This document shows, piece after piece, positions 31,530 to 35,085 of a DNA stretch of 64,000 nt; within the stretch, counting starts at the first letter, position 1, and the number at the start of each line of letters is the position of its first letter. The notes under the pieces are model-generated. The model saw only the letters and a list, made by a program, of their open reading frames with translations. It had not been told where the DNA came from and made no database searches. The DNA is from Allosphingosinicella sp. (GTDB lineage Bacteria; Pseudomonadota; Alphaproteobacteria; Sphingomonadales; Sphingomonadaceae): NCBI GenBank assembly GCA_035942355.1, contig DASZDE010000073.1, forward strand, positions 8,773 to 72,772, in the 5' to 3' direction. A program made the position numbers and the translations under genes.

Positions 31530-31847
31530 ATGCCGCAGCTCATCCTCGTCACTCGCGACGGCACCGAAACCGCGGTCGAAGGCAGGCCGGGTCTCACCGT
31601 GATGGAGGTGATCCGGGACAACGGATTCGACGAGCTCCTGGCCCTGTGCGGGGGCTGCTGCTCGTGCGCCACCTGCCACGTCCACGTCGATGCGGCGTGG
31701 CTGAGCGCGCTGCCTGCGATGAAGGCGGATGAGGACGAGCTGCTCGACAGCTCGGATTGGCGGCAGCCGAACAGCCGGCTGTCGTGCCAGCTCCCGTTCG
31801 GCGACGCGCTCGACGGCCTCCGGGTGAGGATCGCGCCCGAGGACTGA
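31530..31847 (+). CDS. 2Fe-2S ferredoxin, adrenodoxin type
   Basis: [11 protein letters not shown]...SRLSCQ. Confidence 0.95.
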
Positions 31848-31911
31848 AGCCGCCCTTAGCCGCAATTTATGTGCTTGGCCGGCTGAGCCGCTCGCATCAC
31901 CCTCAATCCGG

Positions 31912-32232
31912 TCAGGCGGCGCGGGGCACGATCCGGTCGAGCTCGGCGCCGCGGCTGCGGCGGACTTCCTCCAGGTCGTAGCTGTTCTGGAGACGCAGGA
32001 AGAAACCCTCCGACACACCGAAATAGCGGCCCAGGCGCAGATCGATATCGGCGTCCACGGGTATCTGCGACTTCAGCAGCGCCTTCAGCGTCGACACGGC
32101 GATGCCGGAGCCGGAGGCGACCTCTTCAAGCGGAATGTCGGCACCGATCAGGAAATCCTCACGCAGGACGTCGCCCGGATGGACATTGTCCAGCCGGTCC
32201 TCATCCCTTGTGGTAGTCCTCGATGGGGACAT
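31912..32232 (-). CDS. higA: HigA/VapI-type HTH antitoxin (no intact higB)
   Basis: NVHPGDVLREDFL...DLRLGRYFGVSEGFFLRLQNSYDL. Confidence 0.85.
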   Translation of the reverse strand: MSPSRTTTRDEDRLDNVHPGDVLREDFLIGADIPLEEVASGSGIAVSTLKALLKSQIPVDADIDLRLGRYFGVSEGFFLRLQNSYDLEEVRRSRGAELDRIVPRAA

Positions 32233-32243
32233 CCTTCAGCCTT

Positions 32244-32465
32244 CTAGGCGGCGTAGATCGCCGGCCGGTAGCGCGGTTCGGGAATGGGGAAACCCCGGTC
32301 TCGGGCAACCGCCAACCAGCCCTGGATCGCGTCGCGGACGTTCGCGAGCGCCTCGGCGGGCGTGTCGCCATGAGCTGAGCAGGGTTTCAGGTCGGGGACG
32401 TCCGCGATCCAGCAGGCGTCTGCCTCCGACCAGAAGAGATTTATGTGGTACCGAGGGTCGCTCAT
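32244..32465 (-). CDS. hicB: HicB antitoxin, short form without DNA-binding domain
   Basis: WSEADACWIADVPDLKPCSAHGDTPAEALANV; only 73 aa. Confidence 0.88.
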   Translation of the reverse strand: MSDPRYHINLFWSEADACWIADVPDLKPCSAHGDTPAEALANVRDAIQGWLAVARDRGFPIPEPRYRPAIYAA

Positions 32466-32716
32466 TCCCCAATATGTAGTCCGTACTCCTCCACCAGATC
32501 AAGGAACTGCGCCACCTGATACCGCTTTGCGTCCTTTCCGTGCGCTTGGATCGGGAATGAGCGAGGCACTCGCGGATGAACATAGTGCCGATGGCTGCCT
32601 ACGGTGCGGTCCAGTGAGAAGCCGAAGGCTGCGAGAAGCCGTTCGAAATCCCTGAAGGAGAGTACCGGCCTCGCTCCGGAGAGAAGGCGCTCGTAGATGC
32701 GGCGCGGCTTGGTCAT
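32462..32716 (-). CDS. hicA: HicA mRNA interferase toxin
   Basis: FRDFERLLAAFGF.LDRTVGSHRHY; ATGA overlap with hicB. Confidence 0.88.
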   Translation of the reverse strand: MTKPRRIYERLLSGARPVLSFRDFERLLAAFGFSLDRTVGSHRHYVHPRVPRSFPIQAHGKDAKRYQVAQFLDLVEEYGLHIGE

Positions 32717-32814
32717 GGCTGAACCAGCAGATCGAGGCGGCGCCAAGGCAGAATCGGTCGGGCGCTGCGCCTCCCAGAACCGCAGCCCATTCACATTGGT
32801 GCGAGTGATTTTTT

Positions 32815-35019
32815 CTATCGCCGCCTCACCATTCGCCGAGCTGCCTTCACGGCCTGTTGCTTCCCGAACCTCGTCTTCCGCGTCCCGGGCCTTCCCTCGG
32901 TGGAGTGGCCGCGGACCGGGGCGCGTTTGTCGGGGTCGGGGAGGCCGAGCTCGTCGGATTCGAGGCGGCGGATCTCATCGCGCAGGCGGCCGGCTTCCTC
33001 GAATTCGAGGTCGGCGGCGGCCTTGCGCATGCGCCGCTCGAGCTCCTCGATATAGGCGCGCAGATTGTGGCCGACGAGGTGGGGCATGTCCTCGTCGCCC
33101 GTGTCGACCAGCACGCTGTCGCGGTTGGTGACGTGGCTCAATATGTCCTGGATGTCGCGCTTGATCGTGGTGGGCGTGATGCCGTGGGCGGCATTGTATT
33201 CGAGCTGCTTCTGGCGGCGGCGGTCGGTCTCGCGGAGCGCGCGCTCCATCGAGCCGGTGACGCGGTCGGCATAGAGGATGACGCGGCCCTCGACGTTGCG
33301 GGCGGCGCGGCCGATCGTCTGGATCAGCGAAGTCTCCGAGCGCAGGAAGCCCTCCTTGTCGGCGTCGAGGATCGCGACCAGGCCGCATTCCGGGATATCG
33401 AGGCCCTCGCGCAGCAGGTTGATGCCGACGAGGACGTCGTAGACGCCGAGCCTCAGGTCGCGGATCAGCTCGATCCGCTCCAGCGTCTCGACGTCCGAAT
33501 GCATGTAGCGGACGCGCAGCCCCGCTTCGTGGAGGAACTCGGTCAGATCCTCCGCCATCCGCTTGGTCAAGGTGGTCACCAGGGTGCGGAAGCCCTTCCT
33601 GGCGGTTTCGCGCGCCTCGAAGATCAAGTCGTCGACCTGGTCCTCGACCGGCTTGATCTCGACCGGCGGGTCGATCAACCCGGTCGGGCGGATCACCTGC
33701 TCGGAGAAGACCCCGCCGGTCTGCTCCATCTCCCACGGTCCGGGCGTCGCCGACACCGCCACCGACTGCGGCCGCATCGCGTCCCATTCGTTGAAGCGCA
33801 GCGGCCGGTTGTCGATGCACGAAGGCAGCCGGAAGCCATATTCGGCGAGGGTGATCTTGCGGCGGTGGTCGCCGCGCGCCATCGCTCCGATCTGCGGCAC
33901 CGTCTGGTGGCTTTCGTCGACGAACAGCAGAGCATTCTCCGGCAGATATTCGAACAAAGTCGGCGGCGGCTCGCCGGGCAGCCGTCCGGTGAGGAAGCGG
34001 CTGTAATTCTCGATCCCGGCGCAGCTGCCGGTGGCGGCGATCATCTCGAGGTCGAAATTGGTGCGCTGCTCGAGCCGCTGTGCCTCCAGCAGCTTGCCTT
34101 CCGCGAGCAGCTCCTTCAGCCGCTCGGCCAGCTCGTGCTTGATCGCCTCCATCGCCTGCTTGAGGGTGGGGCCGGGGGTCACGTAATGCGAGTTGGCGTA
34201 GACCTTCACGTAATCGAGCGACGCGATCTTCTTGCCGGTCAGCGGATCGAACTCGACGATCTCCTCGATCTCGTCGCCGAAGAAGTTCACCCGCCAGGCC
34301 ATGTCTTCATAGTGCGACGGGAAGATCTCGAGATTGTCGCCGCGGACGCGGAAATTGCCGCGGGCGAAGGCCTGGTCGTTGCGCTTGTACTGGAGCGCGA
34401 CCAGCTTGCGGATGATCTCGCGCTGGTCGACCGTCTCGCCCTTCTTGAGCGAGAAGACCATCGCGGAATAGGTTTCGACCGAGCCGATGCCGTACAGGCA
34501 TGAGACCGAGGCGACGATGACCACGTCGTCGCGTTCGAGCAGCGACCGCGTCGCGGAATGGCGCATGCGGTCGATCGCCTCGTTGATCGAGCTTTCCTTC
34601 TCGATGTAGAGGTCGGTGCGCGGCACGTACGCCTCGGGCTGGTAATAATCGTAATAGCTGACGAAATATTCCACGGCGTTGTCGGGGAAGAAGCTTTTGA
34701 ACTCGCCATAGAGCTGGGCGGCGAGGATCTTGTTCGGCGCCAGCACCAAAGCCGGCCGCTGCAGCTCCTCGATCACCTTGGCCATGGTGAAGGTCTTGCC
34801 CGAGCCGGTCACGCCGAGCAGCACCTGGGTCTGCTCGCCCGCACGCATCTGTTCGACCAGCTCGGCTATCGCCGCCGGCTGGTCGCCTGCCGGCTGGTAG
34901 TCGGAAACGATCCTGAAGCTCTTGCCGCCCTCGGCCTTGGCGGGCCGCTGCGGGCGATGAGGCACGAAAGCCTGCCCGGTTTCCGGCTCGTCGAGGCCGG
35001 TGCGAATCTGGATCGGCAT
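32815..35019 (-). CDS. uvrB: Excinuclease ABC subunit B
   Basis: [49 protein letters not shown]-terminal UVR domain. Confidence 0.98.
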
Positions 35020-35085
35020 CCGCGCAATATGGCCATGGCGGCGCGGCTGCGCTACTGTCGCCTCGAACAAGGGGGAGGTTCAATC

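What the first reader, a model, noticed from the sequence alone, without database searches (positions are those of the whole stretch)
31912..32716. Chimeric hicA-hicB-higA locus with a fossil higB C-terminus: possible tripartite TA
Seen: right after the hicB stop, a second frame overlapping the higA start reads LKDVPIEDYHKG-stop, like the HigB terminal DVEIVDYH motif. The rest of higB is absent. HicB is only 73 aa and has no DNA-binding domain. Known: higA starts commonly overlap the higB end, and long HicBs autoregulate through their own HTH or RHH. Inference: hicAB replaced higB, and the orphan HTH HigA may now act as the operon regulator or as an anti-addiction antitoxin.
Basis: partly seen in the sequence, partly recalled or inferred. 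Interest (0 to 1): 0.68.

Follow-up and report, generated by a model that had tools for sequence, protein, structure and literature searches.

The report
hicAB plus orphan higA remnant
A small HicA/HicB toxin-antitoxin pair is followed by a leftover HigA antitoxin gene whose own toxin gene (higB) was deleted. This is one outcome of repeated reshuffling at a toxin-antitoxin hotspot next to uvrB in sphingomonads, and the evidence does not support a new three-part system.

Summary
On the minus strand lie hicA (32462-32716), a 73-aa hicB with no DNA-binding domain (32244-32465), an 11-nt spacer, and higA (31912-32232). The frame reading DVPIEDYHKG-stop (32201-32233) is a true higB 3' end. It matches the higB/higA overlap of intact congeneric higBA loci at 30-32 of 37 nt. 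In this window the remnant is essentially higA's own 5' coding region read in the higB frame.

The site downstream of uvrB is a toxin-antitoxin hotspot across Sphingomonadales. It holds hicAB alone (most loci), higBA alone, or intact hicAB-higBA tandems (two Blastomonas species). It also holds hicAB-higA chimeras with at least four or five different junctions, and the mirror image higBA-hicB.

About half of the chimeras carry a broken higA. The intact ones remain under purifying selection, somewhat relaxed in this window's lineage. No HigB is encoded anywhere in this genome.

HigA is therefore an orphan antitoxin left after toxin loss. It is not a required regulator of hicAB. An anti-addiction role is possible but untested. 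This is an ordinary kind of locus with an unusually clear evolutionary record.

The parts
32815..35070 (-). uvrB, the conserved anchor gene upstream of the toxin-antitoxin hotspot
   Evidence: 751-aa ORF. Its C-terminal 261 aa are 73-89% identical to those of the genus loci, and a uvrB 3' end sits next to the cassette in most order-wide loci too.
32713..32812 (-). Pseudogene remnant of gene X: its last ~37 codons with a 1-nt insertion. The 5' two-thirds of X and its promoter are deleted.
   Evidence: tblastn matches X residues 115-140 at 77% identity. The DNA alignment with nine intact X genes shows the extra T and the X stop overlapping the hicA ATG. No promoter-like site or palindrome is found here.
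32462..32716 (-). hicA toxin gene (84 aa)
   Evidence: PF07927, E=5.8e-12. The conserved GSH motif is present. omega on the window branch is 0.15, and omega=1 is rejected at p=0.015.
32244..32465 (-). hicB antitoxin gene (73 aa, no DNA-binding domain). Its start overlaps the hicA stop by 4 nt.
   Evidence: PF21748 and PF15919 match at their cut-offs. It is 74-93% identical to HicB across Sphingomonadales. omega on the window branch is 0.024.
32233..32243 (-). 11-nt hicB-higA spacer AAGGCTGAAGG. Together with the hicB stop it forms a Shine-Dalgarno-like AGAAGG 7 nt before the higA ATG.
   Evidence: Sequence read. The identical junction occurs in the metagenomic relative L121. The coupling itself is inferred.
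32201..32233 (-). Remnant of the higB 3' end (DVPIEDYHKG-stop). Apart from its first base it lies entirely within the higA 5' coding region.
   Evidence: 30-32 of 37 nt are identical to the higB/higA overlap of intact type-2 loci. The same motif ends intact HigB proteins. In L121 this frame has decayed to DVPIEGHHCG.
31912..32232 (-). higA, an orphan HTH antitoxin gene (106 aa, 'type 2' allele)
   Evidence: TIGR02607, 65.2 bits. The nearest solved structures are P. aeruginosa HigA and P. putida GraA. It is 70-75% identical to HigA of intact congeneric higBA loci and 92% identical to L121.
31530..31847 (+). Convergent 2Fe-2S ferredoxin gene that bounds the locus downstream
   Evidence: PF00111. 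The same gene follows higA in L121.

Best explanation
The locus is a compact hicAB module (hicA then hicB, with HicB lacking a DNA-binding domain) followed by an orphan higA.

Origin (shown by comparison). The region just downstream of uvrB is a toxin-antitoxin hotspot in Sphingomonadales. It carries hicAB, higBA, or both in tandem. In the lineage of this window, higB was removed from a hicAB-higBA arrangement, by deletion or by cassette replacement. The cut runs from just after the hicB stop to about 11 nt before the higA start.

The 'fossil' is the 26-nt stretch where higB used to overlap higA. It survives because it encodes the HigA N-terminus.

Expression (inferred). higA is now 11 nt behind hicB, with a Shine-Dalgarno-like AGAAGG and no terminator between them, so it should be co-transcribed with hicAB. 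Because the native upstream gene X and its promoter are deleted here, transcription probably comes by read-through from uvrB.

Function (inferred). HigA is not a necessary third part of hicAB. Toxin genes are lost first because an antitoxin cannot be lost before its toxin. The orphan is kept for a time under purifying selection, relaxed in this lineage. It most plausibly still works as a HigB-neutralising repressor that protects against the higBA alleles circulating at this same hotspot. It eventually decays, as seen in about half of the related chimeric loci.
For: -
- The fossil matches intact higB/higA overlaps at 30-32 of 37 nt.
- Congeners G022, G135 and G137 have X-hicA-hicB-higA. There the hicB stop is followed by 10 nt identical to the intact type-1 higB 3' end and the frame reads GADGVEITDYH-stop.
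- Intact hicA-hicB-higB-higA tandems occur in Blastomonas aquatica and B. natatoria.
- G054 has a frameshifted hicB followed by intact higBA.
- The mirror image X-higB-higA-hicB, with hicA gone, occurs in a Sphingopyxis MAG and in G017.
- At least four or five different chimeric junctions are seen.
- Relatives of this higA have higB inactivated by a premature stop (L122; L124 likewise has only a 55-aa HigB-like ORF).
- 68 of 80 order-wide hicAB loci have no higA.
- No HigB is found in G000, G022, G135, G074 or G161.
- Selection on type-1 orphan higA: pairwise dN/dS is 0.15-0.18, and branch omega is 0.095 against a background of 0.066.
- Selection in the window's chimeric clade: omega is 0.20 against 0.093, with omega=1 rejected at p=0.005. 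On the tip branches alone it is 0.37 (p=0.0075 against the background).
- Window against L121: hicB omega is 0.11 and higA omega is 0.50. Seven of the 17 higA differences fall in the first 26 nt, the former overlap.
- higA is decayed in G074 (frameshift), G161 (~70-nt deletion), L046 (frameshift), L071 (truncation) and L054 (fragment).
Against: - Co-transcription and read-through from uvrB are inferred.
- No promoter was found by a simple sigma-70 scan. That scan may not suit alphaproteobacterial promoters.
- Deletion within a tandem cannot be told apart from direct replacement of higB by an incoming hicAB.
- higA trees disagree with hicB trees. Allele exchange therefore blurs how long each higA has been an orphan, which weakens the dN/dS argument.
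- The codon model is my own implementation, run on genes of 73-106 codons.
- Purifying selection on orphan higA in genomes without HigB shows that HigA does something, and the data do not say what.
Confidence: 0.68

Rival explanations
1. True tripartite system: HigA has been recruited as the DNA-binding repressor of the hicAB operon, making up for the missing DNA-binding domain of HicB (analogous to omega-epsilon-zeta or paaR-paaA-parE).
For: - HicB is 73 aa with no DNA-binding domain.
- How such hicAB operons are regulated is an acknowledged open question (PMC10865869).
- higA lies 11 nt behind hicB with a Shine-Dalgarno-like site.
- The arrangement recurs in several species, and orphan higA is under purifying selection in genomes without HigB.
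Against: - 68 of 80 related hicAB loci lack higA.
- Chimeras in G022, G135 and G137 keep the upstream gene X, and L121 keeps Y. X and Y each have their own palindromic upstream region and look like better regulator candidates.
- The region upstream of hicA in this window is an X pseudogene with no palindrome or promoter-like site.
- higA is broken in about half of the chimeras while hicAB stays intact.
- In the window lineage higA is less constrained (omega 0.37-0.5) than hicB (0.02-0.11).
Confidence: 0.1
2. Pure relic: higA has no remaining function and simply has not yet been hit by a disabling mutation.
For: - Selection is relaxed on the window and L121 tip branches (omega 0.37; omega=1 is not quite rejected, p=0.058).
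- Pairwise omega between the window and L121 is 0.50.
- Five related chimeric loci have a broken higA.
- In this window the upstream gene X and its promoter are also destroyed.
- Orphan antitoxins from degraded pairs are common in bacterial genomes (PMC7192599).
Against: - omega=1 is rejected for the whole chimeric clade (p=0.005).
- Type-1 orphan higA in G022, G135 and G137 shows dN/dS of 0.15-0.18 over dS of 0.3-0.9, with no significant relaxation.
- All 106 codons are intact and the HTH region is conserved.
Confidence: 0.2
3. The HigB-like peptide is a chance resemblance and higA never had a higB partner at this site.
For: - Only about 10 residues are involved.
- No family model detects the peptide.
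Against: - Nucleotide-level homology to the higB/higA overlap of many intact loci at the same genomic position.
- A type-1 equivalent with 10 extra nt of higB in congeners.
- Close relatives of this very higA sit next to intact or nonsense-mutated higB.
Confidence: 0.02

Closest known systems
Class 1 hicAB modules (Gerdes 2024, mBio, PMC10865869)
   Same: The gene order is hicA then hicB, and the genes overlap by 4 nt. HicA is 84 aa and HicB 73 aa, with no identifiable DNA-binding domain. That paper gives sizes of 60-85 and 60-90 aa for this most prevalent class and leaves their regulation as an open question.
   Different: Here a heterologous antitoxin gene (higA) is appended 11 nt behind hicB, and in relatives an extra upstream gene (X or Y) overlaps the hicA start. 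HigA is not mentioned in that survey (0 occurrences in a text search).
HigBA modules with toxin-first order and a higB/higA overlap (P. aeruginosa HigA 6jpi/7csv, P. putida GraA 6f8h/6f8s, Proteus vulgaris HigA 4mcx)
   Same: HigA matches TIGR02607 and these solved HigA proteins (E from 5e-13 to 1e-4). In intact congeneric loci higB precedes higA and overlaps it by 26 nt.
   Different: In the window the toxin gene is gone apart from the overlap, and no HigB is encoded elsewhere in the genome.
Orphan antitoxins from degraded toxin-antitoxin pairs (e.g. the Klebsiella pneumoniae survey, PMC7192599)
   Same: An antitoxin is retained in its original genomic context after loss or inactivation of the toxin. 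The proposed fates are anti-addiction, cross-talk or regulation.
   Different: Here the orphan has been joined to a second, unrelated toxin-antitoxin operon. The same site also shows the reciprocal case, an orphan hicB behind higBA.
Anti-addiction chromosomal antitoxins (chromosomal ccd against plasmid ccd; Saavedra De Bast et al. 2008, from my own knowledge)
   Same: A chromosomal antitoxin with no resident toxin could neutralise a homologous incoming toxin. Cognate higBA alleles are common at the same locus in congeners.
   Different: No functional test exists here. The incoming element would be an allelic cassette at a chromosomal hotspot rather than a plasmid.
Three-gene toxin-antitoxin systems with a separate regulator (omega-epsilon-zeta, paaR2-paaA2-parE2; from my own knowledge)
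   Same: There are three small co-oriented genes, and one is an HTH protein separate from the toxin-binding antitoxin.
   Different: The three genes are not co-conserved. The HTH gene is last rather than first. It also derives visibly from a different toxin-antitoxin pair.

Membership tests
HicA toxin (PF07927) | Match to the HicA domain model above the curated cut-off | tested here: met
   46 bits against a cut-off of 27, E=5.8e-12.
HicA toxin (PF07927) | Conserved catalytic histidine (Gly-x-His region), as in BpsHicA His24 and YpHicA3 His28 (PMC11594946) | tested here: met
   The GSH motif (...DRTVGSHR...) is invariant in the window and six relatives. RNase activity itself cannot be tested here.
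HicB antitoxin, class 1 (no DNA-binding domain) | N-terminal partial RNase H-like HicB domain | tested here: met
   PF21748 scores 27.3 bits (cut-off 27.3) and PF15919 scores 27.3 bits (cut-off 27), so both are only just reached. Profile matches to solved HicB proteins are weak (E 0.07-0.4).
HicB antitoxin, class 1 (no DNA-binding domain) | No HTH or RHH domain; length 60-90 aa; hicA upstream and overlapping | tested here: met
   The protein is 73 aa and is wholly covered by the HicB domain. The overlap with hicA is 4 nt. Relatives have the same length order-wide.
HigA antitoxin (TIGR02607) | Match above the equivalog cut-off, with an HTH fold like solved HigA proteins | tested here: met
   65.2 bits against 47.7. 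PDB HigA and GraA hits range from E=5e-13 to 1e-4.
HigBA toxin-antitoxin pair | An adjacent intact higB toxin gene (PF05015) | tested here: not met
   Only the last 10 codons remain. There is no PF05015 match in the window ORF or in the whole genome.
Tripartite toxin-antitoxin system with a separate transcriptional regulator | The three genes are co-conserved as a unit across relatives | tested here: not met
   12 of 80 order-wide hicAB loci have any higA, and only 4 of them are intact chimeras. higA is broken in 5 chimeric loci.
Tripartite toxin-antitoxin system with a separate transcriptional regulator | The regulator binds operator repeats in the operon promoter | tested here: inconclusive
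   No palindrome or sigma-70-like promoter lies in 32690-32815; the only inverted repeat found up to 32960 is inside uvrB. This region is an X pseudogene. Binding itself cannot be tested here.
Anti-addiction (protective orphan) antitoxin | No resident cognate toxin, the gene is kept under purifying selection, and cognate toxins circulate in the population | tested here: met
   No HigB is found in G000 or G022. omega is 0.095-0.37, below 1. higBA is common at the same site in congeners.
Anti-addiction (protective orphan) antitoxin | The orphan neutralises the incoming toxin | not testable with these tools
   This needs a toxicity-rescue assay.

The most novel reading that the evidence does not exclude
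Orphan antitoxins may be kept reciprocally at this hotspot (hicAB-higA in some genomes, higBA-hicB in others) because they let one toxin-antitoxin cassette displace the other by recombination without post-segregational killing. On this reading the appended orphan is an immunity gene in a contest between alternative alleles at one chromosomal site, and it decays once the rival cassette is gone.
Probability: 0.25. Interest if true: 0.6.

Novelty: new member of a known kind. Interest (0 to 1): 0.35.

Why it matters
The locus itself is ordinary: a common hicAB type plus an orphan antitoxin. Its value is as a well-documented natural series. One chromosomal site next to uvrB shows intact tandems, toxin-first decay in both directions, several independent junctions, allele exchange, and orphan antitoxins held under purifying selection without any resident toxin. 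That series gives a concrete, testable setting for the anti-addiction idea.

It also bears, negatively, on the open question of how hicAB operons with a DNA-binding-domain-less HicB are regulated. HigA is not the general answer. The upstream gene X (RHH-like N-terminus plus a RAMA/DUF4357-like C-terminus) is a better candidate and is worth separate study.

Tried and rejected
1. My first codon analysis, with only eight type-2 higA sequences, gave omega >= 1 on the window branch (LRT 21.9, p = 3e-6). I withdraw it. After adding closer relatives, most of the 'window-specific' changes proved to be shared with intact higBA loci. The estimate fell to 0.20 for the clade and 0.37 for the tips.

2. The sigma-70 promoter and intrinsic-terminator scan of 31800-33000 found nothing. 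The inverted-repeat search of 32690-32960 found only one pair, inside uvrB. No operator candidate emerged.

3. I tried to assign the X remnant to a hicAB-linked or a higBA-linked X lineage. Identities of 52-68% were too similar among the best candidates to decide.

4. I looked for the window's 11-nt spacer in the hicB-higB intergenic region of the G054 tandem and found no clear relation. There is weak similarity to the type-2 junction of L071 only.

5. The profile search of HicB against the PDB returned spurious TAL-effector hits on a 13-residue stretch. Real HicB hits had E values of only 0.07-0.4.

7. Two runs of the branch model failed numerically (nan values). I do not use them.

8. Earlier notes of this scan on the same window concern other coordinates and had no bearing.

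Full report
**What is in the window**

All of the genes below lie on the minus strand, downstream of uvrB (32815-35070).
- hicA is 32462-32716 (84 aa; PF07927, 46 bits against a cut-off of 27).
- hicB is 32244-32465 (73 aa). It overlaps hicA by 4 nt. PF21748 and PF15919 match at their cut-offs, and there is no room for a DNA-binding domain.
- An 11-nt spacer follows.
- higA is 31912-32232 (106 aa; TIGR02607, 65.2 bits against 47.7).
- The nearest solved relatives of HigA are P. aeruginosa HigA and P. putida GraA.
- A convergent ferredoxin gene (31530-31847) bounds the locus.

**Is the higB fossil real?**

Yes. A DNA search of 156 genomes of the same genus found many loci with intact higB-higA directly downstream of uvrB. 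Record titles of matching loci name the genus as Allosphingosinicella. The loci fall into two allele types.
- Type 1: HigB ends ...DGGADGVEITDYH-stop and HigA starts MSRSRTITNPDWLHN.
- Type 2: HigB ends ...DV[G/R]IEDYH[K/R]G-stop and HigA starts MSGSRTTT.DED.LDNVHPG.

In both types higA starts 26 nt before the higB stop.

The window carries a type-2 higA. From its ATG onward, 30-32 of 37 nt match the intact type-2 overlaps. So DVPIEDYHKG-stop (32201-32233) is a true higB 3' end. Apart from its first base it is also the higA 5' coding region, and that is why it survived. The 11-nt spacer upstream shows at most weak similarity to higB.

The genome is 99.9% complete and has no PF05015 match. A search with a type-2 HigB protein gave no hit better than E=0.03.

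**The arrangement is not unique**

Three congeners (G022, G135, G137) have X-hicA-hicB-higA with a type-1 higA. In G022 and G137 the hicB stop is followed by 10 nt identical to the intact type-1 higB 3' end. The frame reads GADGVEITDYH-stop, and the breakpoint falls inside the higA Shine-Dalgarno sequence (GGAGG becomes TGAGG). G135 has the same junction with a 1-nt deletion.

Two further congeners have the same junction with a broken higA: a frameshift in G074 and a deletion of about 70 nt in G161.

A metagenomic contig (L121) encodes a HigA 92% identical to the window's. It carries exactly the window's junction (TAG, the 11-nt spacer, then ATG). In L121 the former higB frame has drifted to DVPIEGHHCG.

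Other close relatives of this higA sit next to either of the following:
- a higB cut short by a premature stop (L122; L124 likewise has only a 55-aa HigB-like ORF);
- an intact higB (L125, L126, L127; in L123 only the 3' end lies on the contig).

**The wider picture**

An order-wide search with a HicB profile returned 80 loci from Sphingomonas, Sphingobium, Novosphingobium, Sphingopyxis, Erythrobacter and other genera.
- In nearly all of them hicAB lies just downstream of uvrB.
- 68 of the 80 have no higA.
- Blastomonas aquatica and B. natatoria carry intact tandems hicA-hicB-higB-higA, one with type-2 and one with type-1 higBA.
- Additional chimeras have different junctions:
  - Sphingomonas trueperi DSM 7225 has a deeper deletion and an intact higA with a new N-terminus.
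  - A Sphingomonas MAG (L046) has a type-1 remnant and a frameshifted higA.
  - L071 has the type-2 remnant EGADDVRIEDYHPG-stop and a truncated higA.
  - L054 has only a higA fragment.
- The mirror image also exists. X-higB-higA-hicB, with hicA precisely gone, occurs in a Sphingopyxis MAG (hicB intact) and in G017 (hicB with an internal stop).
- G054 has a frameshifted hicB followed by intact higBA.
- A higB 5' remnant sits upstream of hicA in L111 and L088.

The uvrB tree shows that cassette content is scattered among close relatives. hicB and higA trees disagree: the higA of L015 is not sister to those of L002 and L014, although its hicB is. The window and L121 share hicB (from about nt 46 onward) and higA but carry different hicA alleles and different upstream genes. 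The site is therefore a recombination hotspot. Cassettes are exchanged there, and toxin genes are repeatedly lost first.

**Selection**

HicA and HicB on the window branch are constrained. omega is 0.15 for hicA and 0.024 for hicB, and omega=1 is rejected for both.

Type-1 orphan higA genes show pairwise dN/dS of 0.15-0.18 over dS of 0.3-0.9. Their branch omega is 0.095 against a background of 0.066, which is not a significant difference. G022 (98% complete) and G135 (73% complete) have no HigB.

For the window my first estimate, omega >= 1, was an artefact of sparse sampling and I withdraw it. With 15 type-2 sequences the results are as follows:
- The chimeric clade (window plus L121, including the stem branch) has omega 0.20 against 0.093. 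The difference has p=0.11, and omega=1 is rejected at p=0.005.
- The two tip branches alone, which are certainly in the orphan state, have omega 0.37. That differs from the background at p=0.0075 and from 1 at p=0.058.
- Pairwise, window against L121: hicB omega is 0.11 and higA omega is 0.50. Seven of the 17 higA differences lie in the first 26 nt, the stretch released from double coding.

The codon model is my own implementation and the genes are short, so these values are indicative only.

**The region upstream of hicA**

It is in fact the last ~37 codons of a gene I call X, with a 1-nt insertion. The 5' two-thirds of X and its promoter are missing.

Intact X is 139-150 aa. It has a ribbon-helix-helix-like N-terminus (weak PF02697 match) and a RAMA/DUF4357-like C-terminus (matches below the cut-offs). 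It precedes either hicAB or higBA in many genomes. Its stop overlaps the hicA start in G022, G135 and G137, and palindromes lie upstream of it.

Some loci instead have a 146-aa gene Y with no Pfam match. Loci without X or Y share a leader with a short hairpin just before the start codon, whether the first gene is hicA or higB.

The window has none of these elements. It has no sigma-70-like site, no terminator and no palindrome between uvrB and hicA. I infer that transcription reads through from uvrB.

**Interpretation**

*Shown.* higA is the survivor of a higBA pair at a hotspot that also holds hicAB. higB was removed up to the higA translation-start region.

*Inferred.* higA is now co-transcribed with hicAB and probably translationally coupled to hicB. 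HigA is not a required partner of hicAB, for these reasons:
- Most hicAB loci with the same short HicB lack higA.
- Such DNA-binding-domain-less HicB proteins form the most prevalent HicAB class (PMC10865869; PMC11594946).
- higA decays in about half of the chimeras while hicAB stays intact.

Purifying selection on orphan higA in HigB-free genomes suggests a residual function. Cognate higBA alleles are common at the same site in related species. The reciprocal orphan (hicB behind higBA) also exists. A protective, anti-addiction-like role against incoming HigB is therefore the most economical proposal. It is untested.

Orphan antitoxins from degraded pairs are abundant in other bacteria, and the same candidate roles have been proposed for them (PMC7192599).

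**Verdict**

The origin story is supported and now much better documented. The tripartite-regulator idea is not supported. The locus is a new instance of known kinds. Its interest is moderate, mainly as a clean evolutionary series and as a pointer to gene X.

**Limits**

- There are no binding or toxicity tests.
- The selection estimates rest on short, recombining genes.

Noticed in passing
L002:2298-2750 (-), L007:510-929 (+), L125:723-1145 (+); remnant at window 32713-32812 (-): Gene X (139-150 aa) has a ribbon-helix-helix-like N-terminus (weak PF02697 match) and a RAMA/DUF4357/DUF2924-like C-terminus, all below the Pfam cut-offs. It sits directly upstream of either hicAB or higBA in many Sphingomonadales. 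Its stop overlaps the hicA start in several loci, and palindromes such as CTATAG-type repeats lie upstream of it. It is a candidate third component or regulator for hicAB operons whose HicB lacks a DNA-binding domain.
   Followed up: partly
L121:165-605 (+); also between uvrB and the first cassette gene in L013, L030 and L011: An alternative upstream gene Y (146 aa, starting MKAKIGS.EVEGT..., with no Pfam match) occupies the position of X in front of hicAB or higBA. It also has palindromic sequence upstream.
   Followed up: partly
L019:1132-1255 (+), L028:1950-2075 (-), and other loci listed: Loci without X or Y share an upstream leader: a GCGATTCA box followed by a hairpin GGCTGCC-N(9-12)-GGCAGCC ending at the start codon. 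The leader is present whether the first gene is higB or hicA. This suggests that coding cassettes are swapped behind a common promoter and leader.
   Followed up: partly
L108:1931-2730 (+) (Sphingopyxis MAG); L007:926-1700 (+) (G017): This is the mirror-image arrangement X-higB-higA-hicB, with hicA precisely missing and the hicB start abutting the higA stop (overlapping it in G017). hicB is intact in L108 and carries an in-frame TAG in L007.
   Followed up: partly
L111:1112-1200 (+), L088:2168-2250 (+): The first ~24 codons of higB (MIRSFA..ETE...) remain directly upstream of the hicA start. This is a higB 5' remnant, complementing the 3' remnants seen downstream of hicB elsewhere.
   Followed up: no
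L119 (own genome, contig C62:17800-20400), minus strand around 1146-1373: A second strong TIGR02607 (HigA-like HTH) match in the same genome forms the N-terminus of a very long open frame (reported as 1366 aa). It is not a small antitoxin. Its function is unknown.
   Followed up: partly
Own genome, contigs C130:473-646 (+) and C182:19733-19888 (+): Two further HicA-domain matches above the Pfam cut-off lie elsewhere in the genome. I did not examine their partners.
   Followed up: no
window 32421-32465 compared with L121:853-897: Ten of the 14 hicB differences between the window and its closest relative L121 fall in the first 45 nt, and the hicA alleles differ at 79 of 252 nt. This indicates a recombination breakpoint inside the 5' end of hicB.
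   Followed up: partly
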